A DNA stretch of 64,000 nt, taken from contig JAQVMB010000003.1 of NCBI GenBank assembly GCA_028703835.1, positions 5,493 to 69,492 on the forward strand, in the 5' to 3' direction. A program made the translations under genes and the position numbers. Numbering within the stretch: the first letter of the stretch is position 1; each line of letters begins with the position of its first letter. The notes under the pieces were generated by a model, which saw nothing but the letters and a program-made list of their open reading frames with translations, had not been told where the DNA came from and made no database searches. Below, in pieces: positions 529-29,172 of this stretch. This stretch comes from Candidatus Peribacteraceae bacterium. GTDB taxonomy: Bacteria; Patescibacteriota; Gracilibacteria; Peribacterales; Peribacteraceae.

Positions 529-3066
529 TTATTCCATGATGCAGGGAACACCTCTTCCGCACGGAGAGGGGTTTTCCGCAACGGGATACGTGACGCTGCC
601 CTGCTCCTTCAGGTCCGAGAGCGCGTTGGCTTGCACCACGCCGTCACTGACGGTGTAGAGGCTCTCGCCGATGCGCGTGACGCGCTGGATGTCCTTGCCC
701 GTGCCGTACCAGTAATCGCCGGCTTTCACGTACTCCTCGTCCGTGTAATGCGTGATCCGTCCGCGCAGCGTGAAACCGCTGAGGAGCGAGATGCGGTACA
801 CGTACGCTCCCTGGAAGACGGGAGAGCCGTACGCGCTGTCGTTGCCGGGCGTCTTCTGGTCCGCCGGAATCTCGTACACCGTCACGGGGAAGCTGAGCAG
901 GCCGCGCTGCTTGTCGAAGAGGAGTGCCTTGTGGTTTTGCAGCAGAGGACTGTCCGTCCCGCGGTCCCCGATGCCGGTCTGGAACATCTCCTTCGGGTTC
1001 GCCACGTCCGTCACGTCGAAGATGGCCATCTTCATGCCCTGTTGCCAGGCGAACGTGCCGTCTTTGGATTCCACCGCTTCTTTGCCGAAGCCGATGATGT
1101 GGTTCTCGTCGTACGGGTGGAGGTAATCGCTGAAGCCCGGAATTTTCAGCTTGCCGAGGATGGCGGGATTGCGCGGATCCGAGGTATCGATGACGAAGAG
1201 GGGATCGATGGTGCGGAACGTCACCATGTAGGCGCGGTCGCCGAGGAAGCGCACGGCGTAGATGGTTTCCCCGGGTGCGATCTCTTCGATCTTGCCCACG
1301 TTCTCCAGCGACATGTTCATGATGTAGAGGTTGTTCGTGGAGGGGGAATTGCCGTTGTTCCAGGATCGGCCCTTCGTCGTGGCGATGCGGAACGTGTTCT
1401 CGTGCTCATCCATGGAGAACTGGTTGAGGATGTGGCCGGGAACGGAGCCCTGGCTCTGCAGCGTCACGCCGCCGTCCGTGAACCGGAAGCGGTACACGTT
1501 CGTCTTCTCTTCGCCGCCGCCCGTTCTGTCCCAGTGATACGTCCATTCGGGCGCCGCCACGAACAGGTTCTGCAGCGAGGCGTAGACGTTCTGCGCGTTG
1601 CCCAGCACCGTCGTGCGGGCCACGTCGCCCGTCGGCTTCGACACGTCGATCACGCCGACCGTGAGGTACTGCGGCGAGGGCACGTGCGGGAGGATCATCA
1701 CGTTCCCGCACCGGGTGACGGGTTGCGCCGCATCGCCCACCTTCGAGTCGGAAAACTGGGGGAGCACCGTGTCTTCCGTCGCTTGCGTGAGGGGTTGTGC
1801 GCCGTCGTACCAGCGCATCGGCTGGTTCACCACCAGGTAGAGTTTGTGGCCGATCATGCGCGTGGAGACGGACGACCCGTCGAAGGAGACCTTGCGTTCC
1901 AGCGTCGGCTTCGCGCGGTCCGACACGTCGTAGATGCGCGCCTGCGTGCGCTGCACGGAAGGGTAGTACGGATAAACGGACGGCATCATCTTGCCGTTCA
2001 TGATGCGCGGCGTTCCCTGCGCGGCCCATGCGTTGCCGATGACGACCAGGCGGTCGCCGTCGATGTACAAGTCTTGCGGGCTGAACGTGGAATCTTCGTC
2101 GAAGATCTCGCTCATTTTCCGCATGCCGTCGGCGGGCACCGCCTTCACGATGCGGACGGCGCCGCCCGAAACGATGTAGAGGTACGTGCCGTCCGTCTTG
2201 ACGATGTCCCCTTCGTCCACGCCCTCGGTCTGGACGTTCGTGCGCGCGTAATCGCCGTCATTCCCGGCTTTCGCCGCCGAGTCCGTCATGGGGGCGGCCG
2301 TCGGCACGGCCTCGTTCCGCATGAGTTCCGCAGGCCCTCCTCCCACGCCCCAGCCGCCGCCGCTGCGGCTGCCGGCTTCGCGCATGAACGCCTGCAGGTC
2401 GGTGCAGGAAGCGGCGGTCTGCACGGTGTCGGCGGACAGGTTCACGGTCATGTCGGGGTACTTCACGTTGAGGTAGCCTATCGACGGCTGGTCGGTGACG
2501 TTCTCCGAAAGCCGCCACATCATTTCCGCCATCTCGGCGCGCGTGATCTGCTTCGTGAGGCCGTTCATCGTCGGCGGAATGGCCTTGGAGCTTTCCAACG
2601 CGCGGACGAAGCCCTCGTACCATTCGACGCCCGCTTGCGGATCCTGCTTGTAGGCGACGGAAAAGATTTTTGCCGCCTCCGCGAACGTGACGGGTTTTTC
2701 CGGCCGGAAGAGGCCGTCGTCGTAGCCGGCGACGATGCCCTGCTCCTTTGCCGTGCAGACGTAGGGCGCGAACCACTGTTCCTGCACGTCGGGGAAGCAC
2801 TGTGACGCCCCGGCAATGTCTTCTTTCTTCGCTTCGAGGATGATCTTCAGGAGTTCGGCGCGGTTGATCGTGGCGTCCGGCTTGAAGGTGCCGTCGGCGT
2901 AGCCTTCGATCACGTTCTCGTTCTTGAGGGTGCCGATGGCGCGGGCGTACGGGGTGGACGACGAGACGTCGCGGAACGCACTCGACGCCGCGAAAGCGGG
3001 GGCAAGCTGCATGGACACGGCGAGACCGAGAGCCGTGAACACCAGCCATCGCATGGGATGTCGCAT
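529..3066 (-). CDS. secreted SLH-domain protein with C-terminal beta-propeller domain (S-layer associated)
   Basis: ORF 529..3096. The internal ATG at 3066 gives signal peptide MRHPMRWLVFTALGLAVSMQLAPAFA. SLH-like repeats are present (EGYADGTFKPDATINRAELLKIIL; AGYDDGLFRPEKPVTFAEAAKIF). TNVQTEGVDEGDIVKTDGTYLYIV and the following region resemble the secreted beta-propeller family (PF09826-like, from memory). Confidence 0.75.
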   Translation of the reverse strand: MRHPMRWLVFTALGLAVSMQLAPAFAASSAFRDVSSSTPYARAIGTLKNENVIEGYADGTFKPDATINRAELLKIILEAKKEDIAGASQCFPDVQEQWFAPYVCTAKEQGIVAGYDDGLFRPEKPVTFAEAAKIFSVAYKQDPQAGVEWYEGFVRALESSKAIPPTMNGLTKQITRAEMAEMMWRLSENVTDQPSIGYLNVKYPDMTVNLSADTVQTAASCTDLQAFMREAGSRSGGGWGVGGGPAELMRNEAVPTAAPMTDSAAKAGNDGDYARTNVQTEGVDEGDIVKTDGTYLYIVSGGAVRIVKAVPADGMRKMSEIFDEDSTFSPQDLYIDGDRLVVIGNAWAAQGTPRIMNGKMMPSVYPYYPSVQRTQARIYDVSDRAKPTLERKVSFDGSSVSTRMIGHKLYLVVNQPMRWYDGAQPLTQATEDTVLPQFSDSKVGDAAQPVTRCGNVMILPHVPSPQYLTVGVIDVSKPTGDVARTTVLGNAQNVYASLQNLFVAAPEWTYHWDRTGGGEEKTNVYRFRFTDGGVTLQSQGSVPGHILNQFSMDEHENTFRIATTKGRSWNNGNSPSTNNLYIMNMSLENVGKIEEIAPGETIYAVRFLGDRAYMVTFRTIDPLFVIDTSDPRNPAILGKLKIPGFSDYLHPYDENHIIGFGKEAVESKDGTFAWQQGMKMAIFDVTDVANPKEMFQTGIGDRGTDSPLLQNHKALLFDKQRGLLSFPVTVYEIPADQKTPGNDSAYGSPVFQGAYVYRISLLSGFTLRGRITHYTDEEYVKAGDYWYGTGKDIQRVTRIGESLYTVSDGVVQANALSDLKEQGSVTYPVAENPSPCGRGVPCIME

Positions 3067-3170
3067 AGTAAAAAGGGGGAAGACGGACGTTGTCACCCTA
3101 TCCTACGTGCGTGGACCTCATTCGTTACACGGTTTGGTGTTGACGAAAGAATCGGGCATTGAGTATCGCG

Positions 3171-19454: not shown

Positions 19455-21131
19455 CTAATACACCATTTTCAGATAGCAGGATTCACAGTAGACGATCTCC
19501 GGTCTTTCCGGGGCGTAGTTCGTGCTGATGGCCGCGTTGCACCGGGCGCAGTTCCTCTGCCAGAGTTTCCGTGGATTTCGCAGTGCCATGCGGTCAGCAT
19601 GCCGTTGGTCGGGGCATCGGCGCGGGACGGGGAGGCCCATCGTGCGGTAGAACTTCAATTCCTGCGGGATGATCTTGAACGGTCTGCCTGTGGACTCGCA
19701 GATCAGGATCCGGTCGCAGATGTCGTCGGGAACGTCCCTGATTGCGGCGGGGACCGGGACGGGCGGCCCTTTGTATGATTCCTTCTTTTCCTGCGGTTCG
19801 TTGTACCAGTTCCATCCCTGCTTCTTCGCTTCTTCCTCCGTGAGCGGGAAATTCTCCTGCGCCAGCGTCTCGTTGTAGCCCATGTAAGAAAGATGCGGTT
19901 GCAGGTAATCGCCCCACTCGCCGGTCTTGCGCATGTGTTCAATGATGCGCGGCACGAGCGCTTCATACTCTTCCTTCGTGTACTGCTTGTTCAGGATGCA
20001 GTACTTCTTGCGTCGCATGCTGATGCAGCCGAAGACATTCTGGCAATGGTGAATTTCGCGGCTGTAGTAGTTGTCGCTACCGTACCAGCAGAGGAACGTA
20101 CCCATCGTTCGCTGTCCGCCGACGGTCGATCCCACATTGAAGCTGAACTCGATGCCGTCAGGTGCCGTGTAGTTTCCGTCCTGGCTGTACTTGCTCTTCG
20201 GCGAGTTCCACAGGTACGTGCAATCCTCGCATGCGGTGCAGTCAAACGTGTACTTGCAGTTCTTGCTGTTGAAGACCATGTCTCCCGTACAGTCCTCGCT
20301 GCCCAGGGTATGCGCTGCACGATGGGGGAGCGGCTTCTTCAACTCTTCGAACTTCTCACGCAGGAGGCGCATCTTTTCGGGCGTGAAGGGGCGCAGTTCT
20401 GCCAGACGCTTCTCATATTCTTCTTTGCTGAGAGGTTTGTTCAGGAAGCAGTATTCCTTGTTCTGCAGGCCGAAGCACAGAAAGCAGTTCTTGCACGACT
20501 GGCAATCTTCCACCATGAGGCAGTCGGTACAGTTGCGGCAGTTCATGAAGTGGAAGCATTGATAGCACTGTTGCGACGCGATGCCCTCGTAGCACCACTC
20601 GCAGGAGTAGAGCGACAGGCCGTCCACGACATCTTTGGAATCGATCACGAAGCGACCGTAGAGGCAGTTCTCGGCATTGGTGATGCCGGCGACGAGGTAG
20701 CAGTCGCGGCAGTTGAGGGAGTGGTTGGTGTAGTAGCTGTTCTGTTCGTTGGTGGTGAAGAGCGACTGGTGCGGGACCGCCAAACCCAGTGCGGCGAATT
20801 GTTCCGAGAAAGTCTCGTTGAAGTCGAAGGGGCGACCGTACGACAGCTCGTCCCACCTGTCGCTCCAGAACTCCTCCTGGTCGTAGACCTTGTACGGTTT
20901 GTCCGGAGCGTAGATGGAAACGATCTGCTTGCCGGAGAGATCGGATTTCCGGTGGTAGAGGTTCAGGTCGTTGCGGAAGGCAAGACGTCGGCGAAAGCGG
21001 CAGTCCGGGCAGAATACCGGCGGTGGGATCTGCTCCTTCTTGCCGTTGAAGACAGGGGAGACCGTGTCGTAAAACACGAGGTCATTCGGAGTGATCTCAA
21101 AGGCAGCCGAGCATTGTTTGCAGGTGGCCAT
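19455..21131 (-). CDS. Cys-rich zinc-ribbon paralogue A (unnamed family)
   Basis: ORF 19455..21239. The internal ATG at 21131 (MATCKQCSAAFEITPNDLVFY...) aligns with its sisters and overlaps the upstream stop by 1 nt (TAATG). About 35 Cys by hand count. Ends ...NCARCNAAISTNYAPERPEIVYCESCYLKMVY. Confidence 0.85.
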   Translation of the reverse strand: MATCKQCSAAFEITPNDLVFYDTVSPVFNGKKEQIPPPVFCPDCRFRRRLAFRNDLNLYHRKSDLSGKQIVSIYAPDKPYKVYDQEEFWSDRWDELSYGRPFDFNETFSEQFAALGLAVPHQSLFTTNEQNSYYTNHSLNCRDCYLVAGITNAENCLYGRFVIDSKDVVDGLSLYSCEWCYEGIASQQCYQCFHFMNCRNCTDCLMVEDCQSCKNCFLCFGLQNKEYCFLNKPLSKEEYEKRLAELRPFTPEKMRLLREKFEELKKPLPHRAAHTLGSEDCTGDMVFNSKNCKYTFDCTACEDCTYLWNSPKSKYSQDGNYTAPDGIEFSFNVGSTVGGQRTMGTFLCWYGSDNYYSREIHHCQNVFGCISMRRKKYCILNKQYTKEEYEALVPRIIEHMRKTGEWGDYLQPHLSYMGYNETLAQENFPLTEEEAKKQGWNWYNEPQEKKESYKGPPVPVPAAIRDVPDDICDRILICESTGRPFKIIPQELKFYRTMGLPVPRRCPDQRHADRMALRNPRKLWQRNCARCNAAISTNYAPERPEIVYCESCYLKMVY

Positions 21132-22819
21132 TAGTAGACGGAAGCGAGGTAACACTCTTCGCAGTAGACGATCTCGGAACGGTCGGGAGCGTAGGTTGTC
21201 CGCATCTCTTTGCTGCAGTTCATGCACGGACGAAGCCACAGCTGGCGGGGATTGCGGAGGGCAAGCCGCAGGTCGTAACGCACGTCAGGATGGAGGCGAG
21301 GAACGGGTAATCGCTGCTTCCTATAGAAGTCCAGTTCCTGCTTCGTCACTTTGAACGGACGCTTTGTTATGTCGCATTCGATGGCCCAGTTCGTTATGTC
21401 ATCGGGAATGTCATCGATGAAGTCGGGCAGGCGGGAAGCCGGGATGGTTTTCGCTACCTGCAATTGCTTCTCCTCGCTATCACGCCAATAAAAGCCCCGA
21501 GTGAGAGCTTCCTCTTTCGTCAGCGGCAGGTATTCCCCCGCGAGTGATTCGTTGTAACCGAAGGCGGAGAGTGCCGGCGGGAAGAATTTTCCCCATTCTT
21601 CCGTTCTCTTCATCTTCTCGATGATCTTGGGCACGAGCGACTCATACTCGCTCTTTGAATACTGTTTGTTCAGGATGCAGTACTGCTTGTGGCGCAGCGC
21701 GACGCAGCCGAAGCAGTCATGACAGTTGAAGCAGTATTCGCAATAGAGAAGGTTCTGGCTGTGGAAGACGTATAGACAGTAGGCCGTGCTGTAGGTCTCG
21801 ATCGTTCCGAGCGTTTCGTACGCAAGCTCTGGTTTGACGTACATGTTCGAGCAGTCGTAGTTGTCCTTTACCCCAACGCCCACGGTCACGTAGCGGCTGT
21901 CCTGGCTGTCGTTCACGTCGTAGCAGTCCAAACAACGTTGCGAATTCTCGATGTAATCACCGCTGCACACCTCGCTGTTCACGATGTTCGAGCCGCGATG
22001 GATGGTTGTCTGCCGCAAGGCAGCGAGTTTCCGCTTCAGCTCTTCCGACCGCGCATGGAACCCGCGCACTTCCCGGACTTTCCTCTCGTATTCTTCTCTC
22101 GGCAGGGGCTTGTTTTCAAAGTGATATTCCTTCTGCCGCAAGTTGCTGCAGAGGAAGCAGTTGCTGCATCCTACGAGGTTGAGGGACCAGGAACAGTCGC
22201 GGCAATTCTTGCTGAACGAGACGTGGTTGCAGTTATAGGAGTCATACACCGAGAAGCATTCGTAGCAGAGCTCGGAGTTGTAGAGGTAGGAGCAATCCAC
22301 CGAGCTCTTGCAGCTTTGGTAGAGCTTTCCATAGTAACAATCCTCGCAGTACTCCGAGGAGTTGATGAGGTAACAGTTTTTGCAGTAGGCGGTCCCTGCT
22401 GAAAAATCTGAATTCTCATTCTGCAGAATCATCATGCCGAGGCGCGGCGCATCTTTATGGAGAGCGGCAAACTGCGGGAAGAAAGGTTTGCCGAAGTCGT
22501 ACGGCCGTCCCAGTTCCGTGTTATCGAGCTTGTCGTCATAGAACTCATCGGAGGTGTAGACCTTGTCGGGCTTTCCCCACAGGGGAATCTCATGGAACGT
22601 CGAAACCATGTCTTTGCCCGAGAGCGTGGAAGAACGTTTATAGAAGCTGCGCTCGTTGCGGTGACAGGTGCGGATCCGCAGCCGACACTCCGGACAGAAG
22701 ACTGGCAGTGGCGGATGAATGGCTTGTTCCCCGAACGTAAACGTCATCTTCTGAACGAATGTTTCTTCGTCAGGAGCAATGGCGAACGGCGCCTGACAAC
22801 GAAGACACGTCTTCTGCAT
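21131..22819 (-). CDS. Cys-rich zinc-ribbon paralogue B
   Basis: 562 aa. Starts MQKTCLRCQAPFAIAPDEE... and ends ...CMNCSKEMRTTYAPDRSEIVYCEECYLASVY. Its start is 4 nt downstream of the stop of C. Confidence 0.85.
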   Translation of the reverse strand: MQKTCLRCQAPFAIAPDEETFVQKMTFTFGEQAIHPPLPVFCPECRLRIRTCHRNERSFYKRSSTLSGKDMVSTFHEIPLWGKPDKVYTSDEFYDDKLDNTELGRPYDFGKPFFPQFAALHKDAPRLGMMILQNENSDFSAGTAYCKNCYLINSSEYCEDCYYGKLYQSCKSSVDCSYLYNSELCYECFSVYDSYNCNHVSFSKNCRDCSWSLNLVGCSNCFLCSNLRQKEYHFENKPLPREEYERKVREVRGFHARSEELKRKLAALRQTTIHRGSNIVNSEVCSGDYIENSQRCLDCYDVNDSQDSRYVTVGVGVKDNYDCSNMYVKPELAYETLGTIETYSTAYCLYVFHSQNLLYCEYCFNCHDCFGCVALRHKQYCILNKQYSKSEYESLVPKIIEKMKRTEEWGKFFPPALSAFGYNESLAGEYLPLTKEEALTRGFYWRDSEEKQLQVAKTIPASRLPDFIDDIPDDITNWAIECDITKRPFKVTKQELDFYRKQRLPVPRLHPDVRYDLRLALRNPRQLWLRPCMNCSKEMRTTYAPDRSEIVYCEECYLASVY

Positions 22820-22823
22820 ACGT

Positions 22824-24503
22824 TCAATATACTTCCTTCAGATAGCATTCTTCGCAATAGACCTTTTCCGGCCGTTCGGGGGCGTAGGTCGTCTGCATCT
22901 CCTTTCCGCAATGCATGCACTTCCTTCCCCAAAGCGTGCGGGGATTGCGCCGGAGCATCCTCCGACGGTGTCGTTCGTCGGGATGGAAATGAGGAAGGGG
23001 GAATCCGCGTTCTCGGTAGAACTCCAGTTCCTTCTTCACGATTCTGAACGGGCGGTTTGTTGCTTCGCACTTGATTGCCCACTGGAGAATGTCGTCAGGT
23101 ACCTGCGTGATATCCGTCGGCAGCGTCGAGGCTGCGATGATTTTCTTCACGTCCGGCAATTCCGTTTCTTCCTCGCGCCACGGCCAGCCGCGGCTCTTCG
23201 ACTCCATTTCCGTAAGCGGGAAATACTGCTGCGCCGTCGTTTCGTTGTAGGCGAACGGTGAGATTCCTGCAGGAAAGAATTCTCCCCATTCTTGCGTTGA
23301 TCGCATGTGTTCGATCACTGTCGGTACGAGCGATTCATACTCTTCCTTCGTGTATTGCTTGTTCAGGATGCAGTGCTTCCCGGGCTTCATGGAGACGCAA
23401 CCGCACATGTGTGATCCAGACTGGACGATGTCGCAGTAGAGCAGGTGCTTGCTGCCCCAGGAGCCGTGCGTAAAGATGGCGTTGTAAGAGCCGTAGCCGA
23501 GGCTGAGCGATTCGTACCCTAGCTGGGCGTCCGTGGTGTGGCAGACATCCAATAGGTCTTTGATCTGAAAGCCGGTGAAAATGTTTGCACAGTCTTCGCC
23601 GTACGAAACGTCGAAGCAGTTCTGCAGGTTCCGCGAGTTCTTCAGGTAGTCGCCCGTCACGTTCTCGCAGCTCACTACTTCGCGCGCCCGATGGATGCTC
23701 TGCTCTTTGAAGCGGGAGAATTCTTGCCGCATCTTCGGCAGCCCGCCCTTTGCCATTTCTTGAAGCAGCGCGCGCTTCTCTTTCGCGTACTCTGCGGGAG
23801 TGAACGGCTTGTTGCGGATGTGGAAGCGTTTGTTGCGAAGATTGACGGAGAAGAGGCAGTCTGCGCAGCCTTTGCAGTCGAAGAGGAACATGCTGTCCGA
23901 GCAGTTGGTGCAGTTTTGGGAGAACGACACGGTGTGGCACTTGTCGACGTCGGTCACTTCGAAGCAGTACTGCGACTCCGTGCAGTCTCCGGCGTCGATG
24001 CAGCCCGTCGACTTGATGACCTGGTAGCCGTAGAGGCAGTCTTCGTTGAACTCCGCGGCGAAGAGCAGGTAGCAGTTCTTGTTGGAGCCGGAGAGATTGA
24101 TGAATTCCGAGTTCTCGTTATTCACCACGTTGAGCGCGAGGCGCGGAACGACGTTCTGCAGCTCATTGATCTGCGGGAAGAACGGACGGTTGAAATCGAC
24201 ATTCCGCCCGAAGCTGCGCGGGTCCCACTTGTCCGACCACCAGCACTCCGTGCAGTAGACGGGGAATGCGCTCTTCGTCGGGTAGACGGAGATGATGGAC
24301 TTCTTGCACGCGTCACAGGTGCGGCGGTACAGCGTCCGCTCGTTACGCCAGAAGAGCCTTCGCTGCTGACGGCAGTCGGGGCAGAGCGTGGGCGCAGGGA
24401 TCTCGAAGCGCTTGCCGCCGAACTCGGGCGCCATCTTGGCACGGAGCTCTTCTTCGAGCGGAGTGACGGTGAAGGCCGAGGAGCATTGCTTGCAGGTTGG
24501 CAT
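22824..24503 (-). CDS. Cys-rich zinc-ribbon paralogue C
   Basis: ORF 22824..24602, read from the internal ATG at 24503 (MPTCKQCSSAFTVTPLEE...). Ends ...CMHCGKEMQTTYAPERPEKVYCEECYLKEVY. Confidence 0.85.
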   Translation of the reverse strand: MPTCKQCSSAFTVTPLEEELRAKMAPEFGGKRFEIPAPTLCPDCRQQRRLFWRNERTLYRRTCDACKKSIISVYPTKSAFPVYCTECWWSDKWDPRSFGRNVDFNRPFFPQINELQNVVPRLALNVVNNENSEFINLSGSNKNCYLLFAAEFNEDCLYGYQVIKSTGCIDAGDCTESQYCFEVTDVDKCHTVSFSQNCTNCSDSMFLFDCKGCADCLFSVNLRNKRFHIRNKPFTPAEYAKEKRALLQEMAKGGLPKMRQEFSRFKEQSIHRAREVVSCENVTGDYLKNSRNLQNCFDVSYGEDCANIFTGFQIKDLLDVCHTTDAQLGYESLSLGYGSYNAIFTHGSWGSKHLLYCDIVQSGSHMCGCVSMKPGKHCILNKQYTKEEYESLVPTVIEHMRSTQEWGEFFPAGISPFAYNETTAQQYFPLTEMESKSRGWPWREEETELPDVKKIIAASTLPTDITQVPDDILQWAIKCEATNRPFRIVKKELEFYRERGFPLPHFHPDERHRRRMLRRNPRTLWGRKCMHCGKEMQTTYAPERPEKVYCEECYLKEVY

Positions 24504-24617
24504 CCAGCCCACTGTACGGCCGGATATGCCGTCATACAATTGTCGCATGAGGGTTTCCGATTTTGCCCTGGCAGAAGAGCCGTTCGTGAACCCGATATTC
24601 ACGCGCCACTGTGAAGA

Positions 24618-25406
24618 TCACGCCCCCACGCCCTGCTTCCACATCGATTCGAACTGGTTGCGATAGAGTTCGATAAGTTCCGGTTGCCGGATGACGATGA
24701 CGCGCGGGTTCGTGTCGTCACAGATGAAGTGGCTGACGTGGGCGTCGGCGAAGGCGAGGTAATCGTCCGTCACGGGGATGTCATCGACGAGGCGGCTTGT
24801 GCGCAGTTCACGTGAATCCCTCTTTGCGAATGTTTCCGCTTCGGGCGTGCGGGGATTGAAGATGCGGCAGTAGATGCCGCGGTCCAGACGCTTGCGGCGG
24901 AACGCCAATTCTTCGGGCGCCTCGTCGGACAGACCCGCCACTCGCCAGTAGTTCGCCATGTTTCCGAGATGCAGGTACTCGTCGGTGCAGCAATCGGGCA
25001 GCTTCAGATATTCCTCCCGGAACGCTTCCACCCCTTCCCGGATCTCCACGGGTTCCGCTTCGTCGATCTTCGCTTCGTTGTCCAGGTACGGAAGCAGCGA
25101 GTCCAGACCGGCCAAGGCCAGCCGGAGCTTTCGCATCTTCCGCTGGTCTGCGTCCAGCTTCGTGATGATGGCGCGGAGCGTGAGGGGCGAGAAGACCGAT
25201 TGCTTCCGGTTCAGCTTCATCGGGGAAACGAGTCCGCGATCCTGAAGTCTCTTCATGGTGCGATAGGCCGTCATCACGTTGAGGCCGCTCGCGGCGATCA
25301 GTTCCGTCATCGATGCACGGCGCAGCTTCAGCAGCTGCAGGTACAGCGCAATTTCCTCCTCGCGGAGTCCCGCCAGCCGAAGAAGATCCTGGATGCGGCT
25401 ACGCAT
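24618..25406 (-). CDS. TrmB-family winged-helix transcriptional regulator
   Basis: 262 aa. The N-terminal LGLREEEIALYLQLLKLRRASMTELIAASGLNVMTAYRTMKRLQDRGLV fits a TrmB-type wHTH. It is embedded between paralogues D and C on the same strand. Confidence 0.7.
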   Translation of the reverse strand: MRSRIQDLLRLAGLREEEIALYLQLLKLRRASMTELIAASGLNVMTAYRTMKRLQDRGLVSPMKLNRKQSVFSPLTLRAIITKLDADQRKMRKLRLALAGLDSLLPYLDNEAKIDEAEPVEIREGVEAFREEYLKLPDCCTDEYLHLGNMANYWRVAGLSDEAPEELAFRRKRLDRGIYCRIFNPRTPEAETFAKRDSRELRTSRLVDDIPVTDDYLAFADAHVSHFICDDTNPRVIVIRQPELIELYRNQFESMWKQGVGA

Positions 25407-25433
25407 GGAAGAGGCAGTATAGCTCAGTTGGCT

Positions 25434-27122
25434 TCAATACACCTCTTTGAGATAGCATTCTTCGCAATACACGATTTCCGGCCGCTCCGGAGCATACGTC
25501 GTCCTCATCTCCTTCCCGCATTTCATGCAGGAGCGGATCCAGAGTTTGCGGGGGTTGCGCAGCGCCATGCGTCGTTTATGTCGCTCGTCAGGATGGAAAT
25601 GCGGAATCGGAAGCCGCATCTTCCGGTAGAACTCCAGCTCTTGCTTGATGACCTTGAAGAGGCGCCCCGAGACCGGGCAGCGGATCGCCGCGTGCAGGAT
25701 GTCATCCATGACGTCGTTGATACGGTCGGGAAGATTCTTCGCGTCCAGCGTTCGCGTCGCTTGCGGCGGCTCTTCCGCTTCCTCCCGCCACGACCATCCG
25801 CGCTTACGAGCTTCTTCTTTGGTGACCGGGAAGTACTCGGGCTCGTTCGCCACCGATTCGTTGTAAGCGTACGGAGAGGCGTCGACGGGGAAGAACTCGC
25901 CCCATTCGCCCGTCTTCCGCATGTGTTCGATGATCTTCGGTACGAGCGTTTCGTATTCTTCCCTCGTGTACCGCTTGTTGAGGATGCAGTACTTTCCGTT
26001 CCTGATGCCCACGCAGCCGAAACAATCGGATGAAGTGATGGCCAAGTCGCAATAGAGGAGATCATGGTTCACCGTGCTGTAGCTCCCGTGCGTGAAGAGG
26101 ACGTTCCTGCCGGTGATCGTGAGGCCTTCGTACGCAAGTTCCTGGAATGCGCCGTGGTCGACATCCATCGACGAGACCACTTGCTCGTCGAGACGGGTGC
26201 AGTGCTTCAAGTCCTGGCATTTGTCGCCGTCGAAGCAGGAGTGGCAACGGAGAGAGTGTTGGAGGTAGTCGCCGGTGCAATCTTCGCATTGGATGTTGTG
26301 TGAAGCCCGTCGCAGGGCTTGCGGGAGAAGGTTCTTGAACGTTTCACGATGTTTCTCGAATGCGGCATGCGAACCGGACAGGATATCCGCGACCGTACGC
26401 TCAAATGCTTCCTTGCCGACTTCTTCATTGAAGATGCAGTACTTTTTCCCGCGAAGATTGCTGCAGAACGCGATGTTCTGGCATTGCTGGCAGTCGATGC
26501 TGAAGAATGCGTCGGAGCAGTTCTTACAGTCCACGAGAGAGACGCAGTGATAGCAGAGAGTGGAGTCGAGGAGGTCATAGCTGCGCTCCGCGTCGCGGGA
26601 GAAGGCGCAGTCGGAGGAATCTTTCGAATGGTACGTGGCGTGACAGTACAGGTCGTTCTCATTGAATCCGCCGTCGATGCACATGTAGCAATTCTTGGAC
26701 TGCCAGACTTGGTTCACGTAGGGGCAGTTTTCATTGTTGATGACCGCGAGCGACAGGCGCGGGACGTTGTTCCGCAGTTCCCGGAATTGATCGAAGAAGG
26801 GCCGGTAGAAGTCGAACGGACGGCCGTAGGAGAACGGGTCCCACGCATCCGTGTACCACGCCTCCGTCTCGAAGACGGGAAAGGGCTTCTCCGGGGCGTA
26901 GGTCGAGATGATGGGTTTGTTCGTCAGGCCGCACTGTCGACGGTACAGGTTCCGTTCATTGCGAAATGACAGGCGACGTTGCGAGCGGCAATCCGGACAC
27001 AGCGTCGGAGGCGGGATCAACTTTTTCTTTCCGCTGAAGACGGGCGATACTTTCTCGTAGAACACGAGATCGTCGGGAGTGATGTCGAAGGAAGCCCGGC
27101 ATTGGCGACACGTTCTATGCAT
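25434..27122 (-). CDS. Cys-rich zinc-ribbon paralogue D
   Basis: ORF 25434..27221, read from the internal ATG at 27122 (MHRTCRQCRASFDITPDDLVFYEKVSPVF...). Ends ...CMKCGKEMRTTYAPERPEIVYCEECYLKEVY. Confidence 0.85.
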   Translation of the reverse strand: MHRTCRQCRASFDITPDDLVFYEKVSPVFSGKKKLIPPPTLCPDCRSQRRLSFRNERNLYRRQCGLTNKPIISTYAPEKPFPVFETEAWYTDAWDPFSYGRPFDFYRPFFDQFRELRNNVPRLSLAVINNENCPYVNQVWQSKNCYMCIDGGFNENDLYCHATYHSKDSSDCAFSRDAERSYDLLDSTLCYHCVSLVDCKNCSDAFFSIDCQQCQNIAFCSNLRGKKYCIFNEEVGKEAFERTVADILSGSHAAFEKHRETFKNLLPQALRRASHNIQCEDCTGDYLQHSLRCHSCFDGDKCQDLKHCTRLDEQVVSSMDVDHGAFQELAYEGLTITGRNVLFTHGSYSTVNHDLLYCDLAITSSDCFGCVGIRNGKYCILNKRYTREEYETLVPKIIEHMRKTGEWGEFFPVDASPYAYNESVANEPEYFPVTKEEARKRGWSWREEAEEPPQATRTLDAKNLPDRINDVMDDILHAAIRCPVSGRLFKVIKQELEFYRKMRLPIPHFHPDERHKRRMALRNPRKLWIRSCMKCGKEMRTTYAPERPEIVYCEECYLKEVY

Positions 27123-27229
27123 GGATGGAACGTTGGGAAGTGTTTGCAGATGCGGAAAATGCCGGATGCAAGTGAATATTCTCCCCATCCGCTGTCTGCT
27201 GCTTACTGTCGCCGCTATCATGACCGTCC

Positions 27230-27490
27230 ATGGCGAAGAAGCCCGCCCCCATCACGCTCCGTACCGTCCTGCGGCACATGCAGGAGATGAAGCAGGACCT
27301 CCTGCAGCATATGCAGGGGATGAAACGGGAACTTGTGACGAAGGTGGACGCCGTGGAGATGCGTTTGACGGAGCGTATCGACCGCGTCGAACGGAATCTG
27401 ACGATGCAGATCGACGGATTGGACAAGCGCCTCGATGACATCGAAGTGTTCCAACTCCCGAAGCTGAAGAAAGCGGTCGGCATGCGTTAA
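27230..27490 (+). CDS. small coiled-coil protein
   Basis: 86 aa. Heptad-rich MQEMKQDLLQHMQGMKRELVTKVDAVEMRLTERIDRVERNLTMQIDGLDKRLDDIE. Divergent from D. Its stop overlaps the stop of E (TTAA). Confidence 0.55.
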   Translation: MAKKPAPITLRTVLRHMQEMKQDLLQHMQGMKRELVTKVDAVEMRLTERIDRVERNLTMQIDGLDKRLDDIEVFQLPKLKKAVGMR

Positions 27491-29136
27491 TAGACTTCTT
27501 TAAGGTAGCACTCCTCGCACAGGGTCCTCCCGTCATATTCCTGGGGCCAGCTCGTCTGCGTCTCCTTCTTGCACTTGCCGCAGGCGACCGTCCGCAGTTC
27601 GCCGTTGAACGGAATGAGGCGGAAGTTTTCCTGCAGGCGGCGCATGTAATAGGTGTGCGGTAACGGCGCGCAAAGGTCTTTCGCGAACGCGATGTCCACG
27701 TCCGCGATCTGGAACGGCCGCTTTGCGACAGGATCCCAGAACACTTTCTTGGACAGATCCGTACCGGCATCATCGCTCCGGTCGGGGACCTGTGATGCGT
27801 CGATGGCGTCGGATATCCGTTCCGGCTTCTCCGTGCTCATGCGGAACCCGCGCTTCGTTCCTTCTTCCCGCGTGAGCGGCCAGTAGAAACCGGCAAGGCT
27901 TTCTTCATAGGGATTCGCCGCGAAGTGTCCGGGAAAGAATTGTCCGTACTCTCCGGTTCTCTTCATCGCCGCGATGATGTCCGCTTTGCGTTTCTCATAC
28001 TCCTCCGGTGTGTACGGTTTGTTGAAAATGTGATATTTCTTCCCGACCAACCCGCAGCAGCCGAAGCAGTGCTGGCACTGGAAGCAGTGTGCACTGTATT
28101 CCATTTCTTTGGATTGGACGACAAGATAGGAAAAGCGAACATTATAACACTTATCGAGTGCCGAAGAGCTGAAAAATACTAATTCATCTTCGTAAAAATT
28201 CGTATTGTCTAAACAATCTTTGGAATGAACACCTCCCCGGAAGCAGTTTATGCAATCCTCGGCTCCAGTCGATGTAAAATAACAATTTACGCAATTTCTG
28301 CATTCCTCGAGGTAGTTGCCAGTCGAATCTTCCGACTGGTCGAGCATTTGTGATCGATGCCAAGCGTTTGTCCGCAGCATATTACGGAAAGATATGTGAG
28401 TGGCTTCATAGATTTTCCACGACCGCAGATTTAGTTCACGAAGCTTCTGCAAATATTCCTCCTTCGAAAATTGGCGGTTGCCAATGCAATATTGCTTGTT
28501 TCGCAAATTGCAACATAGAACGCAATTGCTGCAATTTCGGCAATCATAGAGAAATGCGCTGTCGCTGCATTGCCAGCAGTTGAGTGCAAAAATAGTCTGA
28601 AAGCAGAAGTGACTGAAAGTGATATCAATACAACGCTGCGAGTCGAAGGAAAAAACTGCATATTGGGAATCCTTCACGCGTAAAACACGAAAACAATAAC
28701 GTACATCTTCGTCCTCCACTCCCGAATGACTTAAATAGCAATTCTTTGAGTACCACCAATCATCGGTGTATTCACAGTTTTCGTTTCCAGCGCCTAAATT
28801 ATGTGCGATGGGAGAATTTTGAAAAATCTCCCACATTTGAGGGAACAGCGGCTTCGTCAGATCCGCGTCCGCGGACGGAGGATTCGCATTCTTGATCCAC
28901 TCGTCCTTGTGCCACACGGGATACGGGCAGTCCTCGGAAAACACGGAGATGATCTGCTTGCCGGTCTTGTCGCACTTTCGTTTATGCAGCGTCCAATGCT
29001 GCCAAAATGCTCCAACGATTTGCCAGCGGACAATGGGGTGGAGGTCCGGCTCGCCGTCGATGCCGAGTTTCTTCCGCAAAGCTGTCTCCTGTTCACTGAC
29101 CGTGAACGTCCTGCCGGTGACGCGGCAAACGGGCAT
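27487..29136 (-). CDS. Cys-rich paralogue E (divergent; N-terminal zinc ligands lost; low-GC core)
   Basis: ORF 27487..29142, read from the ATG at 29136 (MPVCRVTGRTFTVSEQE...). Shares KYHIFNKPYTPEEYEKRKADIIAAMKRTGEYGQFFP and ...CGKCKKETQTSWPQEYDGRTLCEECYLKEVY with its sisters. Confidence 0.8.
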   Translation of the reverse strand: MPVCRVTGRTFTVSEQETALRKKLGIDGEPDLHPIVRWQIVGAFWQHWTLHKRKCDKTGKQIISVFSEDCPYPVWHKDEWIKNANPPSADADLTKPLFPQMWEIFQNSPIAHNLGAGNENCEYTDDWWYSKNCYLSHSGVEDEDVRYCFRVLRVKDSQYAVFSFDSQRCIDITFSHFCFQTIFALNCWQCSDSAFLYDCRNCSNCVLCCNLRNKQYCIGNRQFSKEEYLQKLRELNLRSWKIYEATHISFRNMLRTNAWHRSQMLDQSEDSTGNYLEECRNCVNCYFTSTGAEDCINCFRGGVHSKDCLDNTNFYEDELVFFSSSALDKCYNVRFSYLVVQSKEMEYSAHCFQCQHCFGCCGLVGKKYHIFNKPYTPEEYEKRKADIIAAMKRTGEYGQFFPGHFAANPYEESLAGFYWPLTREEGTKRGFRMSTEKPERISDAIDASQVPDRSDDAGTDLSKKVFWDPVAKRPFQIADVDIAFAKDLCAPLPHTYYMRRLQENFRLIPFNGELRTVACGKCKKETQTSWPQEYDGRTLCEECYLKEVY

Positions 29137-29172
29137 GGCCACAAGTGTACCAAACTTACCTTTCGTTCACTA

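What the first reader, a model, noticed from the sequence alone, without database searches (positions are those of the whole stretch)
28110..28850. Sharp low-GC segment inside paralogue E (compositional mosaic gene)
Seen by eye:
- About 28.11-28.85 kb is AT-rich. Examples are aaaaatactaattcatcttcgtaaaaattcg and caaattgcaacatagaacgcaattgctgcaatttcgg. My rough estimate is near 40% GC.
- Both ends of the same ORF, and all four sister genes, look close to 60% GC.
- The segment encodes roughly residues 95-342 of E. That covers Cys block 1, the helical linker and part of Cys block 2.
- The reading frame stays intact throughout.

Inference: an internal cassette was replaced by recombination with a foreign or much older allele. 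That would fit the central Cys blocks being the variable, specificity-determining part. Similar low-GC patches occur at the RAYT gene (16.56-16.99 kb) and the orphan REC gene (8.24-8.65 kb).
Basis: partly seen in the sequence, partly recalled or inferred. Interest (0 to 1): 0.6.

Follow-up and report, generated by a model that had tools for sequence, protein, structure and literature searches.

The report
Foreign low-GC core in a gene
The middle 750 bases of one conserved, cysteine-rich gene of unknown function in a groundwater Peribacteraceae (candidate phyla radiation) genome use the codons of a much lower-GC organism; this is most likely an ordinary case of gene-internal recombination, and read mapping could not be done to rule out an assembly artefact.

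Summary
Window 28090-28842 (codons 101-351 of gene E, 27487-29142, minus strand) has 41.7% GC, the lowest 740-bp stretch in the 64-kb window (mean 59.8%).

- **Where the drop is:** almost all at third codon positions. GC3 is 0.44 inside and 0.77 outside. The change-point LLR is 30.9, against a maximum of 11.5 in 200 shuffles. Each edge is sharp to within a few codons. The frame is intact, and 51 of 52 highly conserved core residues are kept.
- **What E is:** not a recent local duplicate. It belongs to an old subfamily with full-length orthologues (48-74% identity) across Peregrinibacteria. None of 43 orthologue genes shows a comparable step (core minus ends: -0.12 to +0.13, against -0.32 in E).
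- **Family-wide mosaic:** core and ends have different histories (AU p = 0.0014 and 5e-7). Some pairs have ends 90-99% identical but cores about 58-60% identical.
- **Junctions:** the 3' junction abuts, and the 5' junction lies 16 codons from, the two longest islands of exact nucleotide identity in the subfamily.

Best reading (0.6): double-crossover replacement of the core by an orthologous allele from an unsampled relative of about 43% GC. No donor was found, and read mapping was closed, so a MAG chimera (0.15) and local drift (0.15) remain. This is a new member of a known kind; the protein's function is unknown.

The parts
27487..29142 (-). Gene E, 551 aa. A Cys-rich protein of an uncharacterised family in candidate phyla radiation (CPR) bacteria, and a member of an old 'E-type' orthologue group.
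   Evidence: ORF. Full-length orthologues at 48-74% identity in Peribacteria, Peregrinibacteria and Gracilibacteria. No Pfam or NCBIfam hit. AlphaFold2 model with pTM 0.85 and no PDB fold match.
28090..28842 (-). Low-GC3 core segment, codons 101-351: Cys block 1, the helical linker and most of Cys block 2. This is the putatively imported cassette.
   Evidence: GC 41.7%. GC3 0.44 against 0.77 outside, LLR 30.9 against a permutation maximum of 11.5. 51 of 52 columns that are at least 90% conserved are kept. No other copy in the genome. In the model it covers residues of lower pLDDT (111-220 and 291-370) plus helices 227-258.
28843..29142 (-). N-terminal end of E (codons 1-100), with host-like composition.
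   Evidence: GC 59.0%. GC3 0.70-0.85.
27487..28089 (-). C-terminal end of E (codons 352-551), with host-like composition.
   Evidence: GC 57.5%. GC3 0.62-0.88.
28051..28089 (-). 3' junction motif HCFQCQHCFGCCG (codons 352-364). It is the strongest island of exact nucleotide identity with orthologues and the likely crossover site.
   Evidence: A 35-nt exact match to L010 and 20-23-nt matches to L003, L006, L012 and L081, all starting at codons 352-357. These residues are nearly invariant. GC3 switches between codons 351 and 352.
28888..28923 (-). Second island of nucleotide identity (codons 74-85, YPVWHKDEWIKN), 16 codons upstream of the 5' junction.
   Evidence: 33-nt (L003) and 24-27-nt exact matches to six other orthologues. 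The 5' switch in GC3 lies at codon 100/101, inside the conserved FPQMWE(I/L)F motif.
19455..27221 (-). Sister genes A (19455-21239), B (21131-22819), C (22824-24602) and D (25434-27221), with a TrmB-type regulator (24618-25406). They serve as context and as compositional controls.
   Evidence: 29-44% identity to one another and to E. GC3 0.72-0.78 with no internal dip. TrmB is hit by PF01978.

Best explanation
Gene E is a functional mosaic. Its two ends (codons 1-100 and 352-551) are long-term residents of this roughly 60%-GC Peribacteraceae genome. Its core (codons 101-351) was replaced, in frame, by the equivalent part of an orthologous E-type gene from a related but much lower-GC lineage (about 43% GC), which has not been sampled.

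The inferred mechanism is uptake of foreign DNA followed by RecA-dependent double crossover. The exchange would resolve at or near the two motifs of the gene that are most conserved at nucleotide level. It happened recently enough that synonymous sites have not drifted to the host's composition.

Such core-for-core exchange appears to be a general habit of this subfamily: conserved ends act as recombination handles around a more variable core.

**Shown:**
- the GC3 step;
- its absence from orthologues;
- the discordance between core and end trees across the family;
- conservation of the core's key residues;
- the presence of recA and comEC.

**Inferred:**
- the direction of transfer, the donor and the timing;
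- that the junctions exist in the cells rather than only in the assembly.
For: 1. The drop is confined to synonymous positions. GC3 is 0.44 inside and 0.77 outside, while GC2 is unchanged and GC1 is only slightly lower. Codon choice flips: for Ala, GCG is used 0 times in the core and 12 times in the ends. For Thr, ACG is used 1 and 11 times; for Pro, CCG 0 and 12 times.
2. Both edges are sharp to within a few codons.
3. The step is lineage-specific. The 42 orthologue genes have change-point LLR of at most 11.2. Their core-minus-ends GC3 ranges from -0.12 to +0.13, against -0.32 in E (Fisher p = 5e-15). At least 15 of them sit in similarly high-GC genomes. A partial orthologue (L133) is 85% identical in residues 101-148 and has GC3 0.77 there, against 0.40 in E.
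4. Across 64 orthologue loci, gene GC3 predicts surrounding GC (r = 0.93). GC3 0.44 maps to about 43% GC, and 0.77 maps to about 57%.
5. Recombination around the same core is demonstrable in the family.
   - The core tree has a 100%-supported clade: E, L001, L003/P0001, L002/P0002 and P0003.
   - The ends reject that clade (AU p = 0.0014).
   - The ends put E with P0005 and P0007, a grouping the core rejects (p = 5e-7).
   - Maximum chi-square for E against P0005|P0003 is 35.2, against a permutation maximum of 16.9.
   - Some pairs have ends 84-99% identical but cores 58-60% identical. Core identity is bimodal at a fixed end identity.
   - Other orthologues carry smaller core shifts in both directions.
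6. The 3' junction abuts, and the 5' junction lies 16 codons downstream of, the longest exact-identity islands shared with orthologues (35 nt and 33 nt).
7. The core is under purifying selection. 51 of 52 columns that are at least 90% conserved are retained, and the frame is open.
8. The genome encodes RecA and ComEC. Ca. Peribacter riflensis was reported to encode recA and the Ruv pathway (PMC4736985).
9. It is not a conversion from a copy within the genome, because blastn finds only the segment itself.
Against: - No donor was found. The best core identity anywhere is 71% at the amino-acid level (P0003). This comes from a 5.8-billion-protein database, 185,579 species genomes and the JGI metagenomes.
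- Synonymous sites are saturated against every relative, so no timing is possible.
- By topology, E's core type is the one expected from vertical descent. L001 and L003 share both the core type and the neighbouring ends. For E itself, the evidence of foreign origin is therefore compositional only.
- The genome is a 40-contig MAG and read mapping was unavailable. No independent assembly of this exact gene is on record.
- The identity islands by the junctions are also places where an assembler could cross between co-occurring orthologues.
Confidence: 0.6

Rival explanations
1. Assembly chimera. The metagenome assembler crossed twice between the E gene of this population and the E orthologue of a co-occurring lower-GC Peribacteraceae population, at short shared k-mers in the conserved motifs. 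On this reading the mosaic exists only in the contig.
For: - The genome is a 40-contig MAG with 2.3% estimated contamination.
- Exact matches of 20-35 nt between different species' E genes sit next to the 3' junction and 16-25 codons from the 5' junction.
- No independent record of this exact protein exists.
- Read mapping could not be done.
Against: - It needs two in-frame crossings within 750 bp, at repeats of 35 nt or less. That is shorter than the final k of the usual metagenome assemblers (established knowledge, not tested here).
- The genome holds no leftover high-GC core fragment or second E-type gene. All 11 family hits are full-length.
- The supposed co-occurring donor, or anything near it, is absent from all searched collections.
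- The same kind of mosaic (ends alike, cores unlike) recurs in many independent assemblies, including two genes on one contig.
Confidence: 0.15
2. Drift in place. The core is vertically inherited but has locally escaped whatever keeps GC3 high in this genome. One candidate is GC-biased gene conversion, if divergent core types rarely recombine with conspecific alleles. The core would then have decayed toward the AT-rich mutational equilibrium.
For: - E's core type matches that of L001 and L003, its neighbours by the ends.
- GC1 and GARP amino acids in the core are only mildly shifted (GC1 0.43, against 0.45-0.51 in the other four members of its core clade).
- Two other paralogues in this genome (C10:43838-45385 and C28:5893-7392) have lower GC3 over much of their length.
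- E's terminal branch is longer in the core tree (0.30) than in the end tree (0.14).
Against: - None of at least 15 high-GC orthologues with the same architecture and the same core-type polymorphism shows a comparable dip.
- A regional process would not be expected to give edges sharp to a few codons that lie at or within about 16 codons of nucleotide-identity islands.
- The other two paralogues show no significant step (LLR 10.0 and 5.9).
Confidence: 0.15
3. A programmed diversification system acting on the core, such as a diversity-generating retroelement or silent-cassette gene conversion.
For: The affected region includes the most variable part of the protein (residues 226-351). DGRs are common in CPR genomes (general knowledge, not tested here).
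Against: - There is no second copy, template repeat or cassette of the segment anywhere in the 1.34-Mb genome.
- The segment is 750 bp and differs in base composition, not by adenine-specific substitutions.
- 51 of 52 conserved residues are intact.
Confidence: 0.02

Closest known systems
Mosaic genes made by interspecies homologous recombination (classical examples: penicillin-binding-protein genes pbp2x and penA of Streptococcus and Neisseria; from general knowledge)
   Same: An internal block of an otherwise resident, functional gene is replaced in frame by the homologous block of a related species. The edges are sharp and the block has a different history from the ends.
   Different: - In the classical cases the donors are known and the blocks are recognised by DNA divergence; no donor is known here.
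- Here the block is recognised by a GC3 step of 0.33.
- The selective agent and the protein's function are unknown.
- The host is a CPR bacterium known only from a MAG.
Segmentally variable genes (Zheng, Roberts and Kasif 2004, PLoS Biol 2:e81, PMC387263)
   Same: A gene family with well-conserved end regions and a markedly more variable internal region. The linker and Cys block 2 have mean majority-residue frequency 0.57-0.58, against 0.66-0.73 elsewhere.
   Different: That concept is defined by sequence variability alone. This case adds a compositional step in one member and significant core-versus-ends tree discordance.
Exchange of target-recognition domains in type I restriction-modification specificity (HsdS) genes (general knowledge)
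   Same: Conserved regions bracket a variable module and act as handles for homologous recombination, so modules are swapped between alleles and species.
   Different: There is no evidence that the core of E determines any specificity. The family has no known function and no Pfam, NCBIfam or PDB match. This is an analogy only.
zf_Tbcl_2 (PF23477) / TIGR04272 CxxC-x17-CxxC treble-clef zinc-finger domain
   Same: Sisters A-D end in a CxxC...CxxC module that weakly matches these models (16-25 bits). E keeps the corresponding C-terminal Cys pairs (C521, C524, C542, C545).
   Different: All hits are below the curated cut-offs (27 and 36 bits), and E itself gives no hit. The domain lies outside the low-GC segment.

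Membership tests
Mosaic gene by intragenic homologous recombination | An internal segment with composition or divergence distinct from the rest of the gene, with sharp boundaries and an intact frame | tested here: met
   GC3 0.44 against 0.77, LLR 30.9 against a permutation maximum of 11.5. Edges at codons 98-108 and 346-354. ORF open.
Mosaic gene by intragenic homologous recombination | Segment and flanks have significantly different phylogenies | tested here: met
   AU tests give p = 0.0014 (ends reject the core clade) and p = 5e-7 (core rejects the end grouping). Maximum chi-square is 35.2 against a permutation maximum of 16.9. Caveat: parsimony allows P0005, P0007, L002 and P0003 to be the recombinants by topology, rather than E.
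Mosaic gene by intragenic homologous recombination | An identifiable donor lineage carrying a near-identical segment | tested here: not met
   Best core identity is 71% at the amino-acid level and 68% at DNA level. Synonymous sites are saturated.
Mosaic gene by intragenic homologous recombination | The junctions are real in the DNA of the organism (read support) | not testable with these tools
The exact protein is not on record in other assemblies.
Segmentally variable genes (PMC387263) | A long variable region flanked by conserved regions in an alignment of homologues | tested here: met
   Residues 226-351 have mean majority-residue frequency 0.57-0.58, against 0.66-0.73 for the other parts, in 135 distinct orthologues. 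The paper's own quantitative threshold was not applied.
Diversity-generating retroelement target or silent-cassette variation | A template repeat or donor cassette homologous to the variable region elsewhere in the genome | tested here: not met
   blastn (word size 11, E 1e-3) of the 753-bp segment against the whole genome finds only itself.
zf_Tbcl_2 (PF23477) / TIGR04272 | Score at or above the curated gathering threshold | tested here: not met
   E has no hit. A-D score 16.4-25.0 bits against a cut-off of 27; TIGR04272 scores 17.7-20.2 against 36.

The most novel reading that the evidence does not exclude
The Cys-rich core of this CPR-specific protein family may be a swappable module. It would occur as discrete types that move between species, even across a 15-20 point GC gap, by recombination at the conserved zinc-finger-bearing ends. 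That pattern would suggest diversifying or frequency-dependent selection on an interaction surface. Candidates are self/non-self or host/episymbiont recognition, or a conflict system working with the neighbouring TrmB regulators and VirD4-like ATPase. On this reading, E in this genome is the most recent such swap caught before its codon usage drifted to the host's.
Probability: 0.25. Interest if true: 0.6.

Novelty: new member of a known kind. Interest (0 to 1): 0.35.

Why it matters
If the junctions are real, this is a clean, datable-in-principle case of homologous recombination between CPR lineages that differ by about 15 GC points, inside a conserved gene.

CPR bacteria are uncultivated, so their gene flow is known almost entirely from genomes.

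It also shows that this large, uncharacterised Cys-rich family is built as conserved ends around an exchangeable core. That narrows where functional specificity may lie and which part to vary in experiments.

For genome curation, it flags a place where MAG chimerism must be excluded.

The phenomenon itself, a mosaic gene, is textbook.

Tried and rejected
- **Independent assemblies of the same gene:** the exact protein is not on record. The JGI metagenome scan gave nothing closer than 73% full-length identity, plus one partial contig at 81% over residues 5-148.
- **Donor search:** the protein database, the species genomes and the metagenome contigs hold no low-GC orthologue with a core closer than the high-GC relatives.
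- **Dating by synonymous divergence:** only 40-60% of codons for identical residues are the same codon, in both core and ends, against all relatives. The sites are saturated and uninformative.
- **Intragenomic gene conversion from a paralogue:** rejected, because no other copy of the segment exists. The local sisters are 29-35% identical.
- **DGR or cassette variation:** rejected for the same reason.
- **A dip shared by the whole family or subfamily (a selected codon-usage feature):** rejected. It is absent from 10 paralogues and 42 orthologues.
- **Function by homology or fold:** Pfam, NCBIfam, PDB sequence search and Foldseek against PDB gave nothing above threshold. A literature search for the family found nothing.
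- **Failed scripts:** my first change-point script timed out, and my first maximum-chi-square script had a scaling bug. Both were redone.
Full report
**1. The observation**

A 200-bp sliding window shows GC falling from 0.57-0.62 to 0.375-0.47 between about 28.0 and 28.9 kb, then recovering. The fitted interval 28090-28842 is 41.7%. That is the lowest 740-bp window in the whole 64 kb (mean 0.598, sd 0.039).

The interval lies inside a single open frame, gene E (27487-29142, minus strand, 551 aa). Splitting by codon position shows that the drop is almost entirely at third positions. GC3 goes from about 0.75-0.85 to 0.33-0.55, while GC1 and GC2 stay in the range of the four sister genes.

A two-breakpoint likelihood fit on GC3 places the low segment at codons 101-351:
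- GC3 is 0.442 inside and 0.767 outside.
- LLR is 30.9; 200 shuffles gave a mean of 5.6 and a maximum of 11.5.
- The 2-log-likelihood support is codons 98-108 and 346-354.

Reading the codons confirms how abrupt the change is:

| Codons | Ending in G or C |
|---|---|
| 70-100 | 26 of 31 |
| 101-131 | 13 of 31 (4 are ATG or TGG) |
| 320-350 | 12 of 31 |
| 351-381 | 25 of 31 |

Codon choice flips for whole amino-acid classes:

| Codon | Core | Ends |
|---|---|---|
| GCG (Ala) | 0 | 12 |
| ACG (Thr) | 1 | 11 |
| CCG (Pro) | 0 | 12 |

**2. What the gene is**

The window is contig C31:5493-69492 of a MAG:
- 1.34 Mb in 40 contigs;
- 60.3% GC;
- 98.5% complete, with 2.3% estimated contamination.

Hit names place it in Candidatus Peribacteraceae (Peregrinibacteria, CPR). 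The genome holds 11 full-length members of the Cys-rich family. Five of them are the tandem array A-E.

E is not a recent local duplicate:
- It is only 29-35% identical to the other ten members.
- It has full-length orthologues at 48-74% identity in dozens of Peribacteria, Peregrinibacteria and Gracilibacteria assemblies, including Ca. Peribacter riflensis at 66%.

The E subfamily has lost most of the N-terminal CxxC...CxxC cysteines that the sisters keep.

No function can be assigned:
- E has no Pfam or NCBIfam hit.
- The sisters match treble-clef zinc-finger models (PF23477, TIGR04272) only below threshold.
- The PDB sequence search with sister D gives nothing meaningful.

An AlphaFold2 model built on 49 orthologues is confident overall (pTM 0.85, mean pLDDT 81):
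- The ends are well defined (residues 1-110 and 371-551, pLDDT about 85-95).
- There is a helical linker (227-258).
- There are two less confident Cys-rich blocks (111-220 and 291-370, pLDDT 57-73).
- The model has no PDB fold match (best E-value 2.4).

The low-GC segment therefore corresponds to the structural core: Cys block 1, the linker and most of Cys block 2.

**3. Is the step special to this gene?**

Within the subfamily it is.
- I extracted 42 orthologue coding sequences (L001-L027, L080-L094). None has a change-point LLR above 11.2. The ten paralogues in this genome reach at most 15.5, and those signals are start and end effects.
- Using E's own coordinates, core-minus-ends GC3 is -0.32 in E (Fisher p = 5e-15). 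In the orthologues it ranges from -0.12 to +0.13.
- At least 15 of those orthologues sit in comparably GC-rich genomes and have GC3 0.70-0.83 throughout.
- A partial metagenomic orthologue (L133) is 85% identical to E over residues 101-148. It has GC3 0.77 there, against 0.40 in E.

Within the genome the step is not unique.
- There are 41 patches of at least 600 bp below 47% GC.
- In a crude scan of 657 long ORFs, E ranks about 21st.
- Genuine partial-gene cases include a histidine kinase whose N-terminal sensor half has GC3 0.36 against 0.73, a restriction-modification-like gene, and secreted Cys-repeat proteins.

This genome, or this assembly, therefore carries a good deal of lower-GC DNA. 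E is one instance of it.

**4. Evidence for recombination**

*(a) Family-wide discordance between core and ends.*
- A tree of the core (64 sequences) has a 100%-supported clade: E, L001, L003/P0001, L002/P0002 and P0003.
- A tree of the ends puts E with P0005 and P0007, next to L001 and L003. It puts L002 and P0003 elsewhere.
- Each grouping was named from one partition and tested on the other. The ends reject the core clade (AU p = 0.0014). The core rejects E+P0005+P0007 (p = 5e-7).
- A maximum-chi-square scan of E against P0005|P0003 gives 35.2 (permutation maximum 16.9). The best segment is residues 53-339. Inside it, E sides with P0003 at 63 sites and with P0005 at 25. Outside it, E sides with P0005 at 43 sites and with P0003 at 11.

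*(b) The pattern is general.*
- Some orthologue pairs have ends 84-99% identical but cores only 58-60% identical. These include two genes on one 31.5-kb contig and two genes in one MAG.
- At a fixed end identity, core identity is bimodal.
- In close pairs the core is more conserved than the ends.
- This is what discrete core 'types' exchanged between lineages would give.

*(c) Smaller compositional offsets in both directions.*
- L002 and P0003 carry E's core type on discordant ends, and both are at -0.11.
- L019, L010 and L014 are at +0.11 to +0.13.
- This fits older exchanges between lineages of different GC that have partly drifted to the host's composition.

*(d) The junctions lie at or near the best substrates for homologous recombination.*
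- The longest exact nucleotide matches between E and orthologues cluster in two places:
  - Codons 352-364: 35 nt with L010, and 20-23 nt with four others. This island starts exactly at the 3' switch.
  - Codons 74-85: 33 nt with L003, and 24-27 nt with six others. This island lies 16 codons before the 5' switch.
- The 5' switch itself falls in the conserved FPQMWE(I/L)F motif.

*(e) The machinery is present.* The genome encodes RecA and ComEC. recA and Ruv genes were reported for Ca. Peribacter riflensis (PMC4736985).

*(f) The core is functional.* 51 of 52 columns that are at least 90% conserved are retained, as are 85 of 86 in the ends.

**5. Source of the core**

Across 64 orthologue loci, gene GC3 tracks surrounding GC (r = 0.93):
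- GC3 0.44 corresponds to about 43% GC (residual sd 2.7 points).
- GC3 0.77 corresponds to about 57%, the host's range.

An old allele maintained in the same population would carry host-like GC3. The composition therefore argues for a foreign source rather than an 'older' one.

The amino-acid make-up of the core is only mildly AT-shifted. GC1 is 0.43, the lowest of the set, and GARP residues are 14%.

No donor was found:
- The best core match anywhere is 71% at the amino-acid level (P0003).
- The sampled low-GC orthologues are only 45-53% identical in the core.
- Synonymous sites are saturated against everything.

By topology, E's core type is the one its neighbours L001 and L003 also carry. 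The most economical reading is a like-for-like replacement by a same-type allele from an unsampled lower-GC lineage. For E itself the evidence of import is compositional. The topological evidence establishes that such exchanges happen in the family.

**6. Rivals**

- For it: shared 20-35-mers by the junctions could also mislead an assembler.
- Against it:
  - Two in-frame crossings are required.
  - The shared words are short compared with typical final k values (general knowledge).
  - The genome contains no orphan high-GC core fragment.
  - No donor-like sequence appears in any collection.
  - Comparable mosaics recur in many independent assemblies.

*Drift in place (0.15).* This could happen, for example, through local escape from GC-biased gene conversion.
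- For it: E's core type agrees with its neighbours.
- Against it: the dip is absent from all other high-GC orthologues, and the edges are only a few codons wide.

*Programmed diversification (0.02).* DGR or cassette mechanisms are excluded, because there is no second copy of the segment.

**7.

Variability is concentrated in the linker and Cys block 2 (residues 226-351), where the mean majority-residue frequency is 0.57-0.58. Cys block 1 (0.73) is as conserved as the ends (0.66-0.69). Whether the core sets any specificity is unknown.

**8. Verdict**

This is a real and statistically strong compositional mosaic in a conserved, functional gene. It is best explained by orthologous core replacement through homologous recombination from a lower-GC relative, in a family where core exchange is demonstrably common.

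It is a new member of a well-known kind: mosaic genes, or segmentally variable genes (PMC387263). Interest is moderate. It would be higher if read data confirm the junctions and if the family's function turns out to involve recognition.

Earlier notes of this scan on the paralogue array, the family's zinc-finger ends and the low-GC RAYT patch agree with what I saw. They did not change my reading.

Noticed in passing
L016 (contig CAYFOO010000010.1; proteins P0064 and P0083); L017 and L024 (MAG CAYFMH01): Low-GC Peribacteria carry two E-type genes on one contig or in one genome. Their ends are 84-99% identical but their cores are only 58-60% identical. This looks like homogenised ends around distinct core types.
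   Followed up: partly
L096 (Ga0208246_1000064), 3-1490 and 1501-3147: Two E-type genes in tandem, 62% and 73% identical to E. In this window there is a single E-type gene.
   Followed up: no
G000 C11:38556-40322 (+): A histidine kinase whose N-terminal membrane sensor half (codons 24-341) has GC3 0.36, against 0.73 in the kinase half. This is another partial-gene compositional mosaic in the same genome.
   Followed up: no
G000 C18:32928-36065 (+); C40:14532-15857 (+); C11:15141-18875 (+); C36:47489-52114 (-): Further genes with internal low-GC3 blocks: a restriction-modification-like enzyme (codons 494-866), a secreted protein (codons 105-257, GC3 0.24), and two large secreted Cys-repeat proteins.
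   Followed up: no
G000 C6:29601-33700; C10:68701-71700; C11:33201-39900; C24:24201-28900: Multi-kilobase islands with minimum 600-bp GC of 32-38% in a 60%-GC genome. They are among 41 low-GC patches in the genome and are probably acquired DNA.
   Followed up: no
window 27487-29142 (E) compared with 19455-27221 (A-D): The E subfamily has lost the N-terminal CxxC...CPxC cysteines that A-D keep. Only Cys6 remains, and the motif reads LHPIVRWQ instead of LCPDCRxQ. The N-terminal zinc site of E-type proteins is therefore probably gone.
   Followed up: partly
window 27487-29142: The AlphaFold2 model of E (pTM 0.85) has no Foldseek match in the PDB (best E-value 2.4). The fold of this widespread CPR family appears to be undescribed.
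   Followed up: partly
L092, L094 compared with window 24618-29142: In relatives the E-type gene is followed directly by a TrmB-family gene and then by another family member. In this window, paralogue D and a 265-bp spacer lie between E and the TrmB gene.
   Followed up: no
The genome search relatives: Three of seven same-genus genomes lack an E-type gene. The same-genus orthologues (63-68% identity) are less similar to E than L001 and L003 (73-74%). This suggests patchy distribution or transfer of the whole gene as well.
   Followed up: no
G000 C10:43838-45385 (+) and C28:5893-7392 (+): Two other family members in this genome have lower GC3 overall (0.59 and 0.65, against 0.72-0.85 in the rest), but without a significant internal step.
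   Followed up: partly
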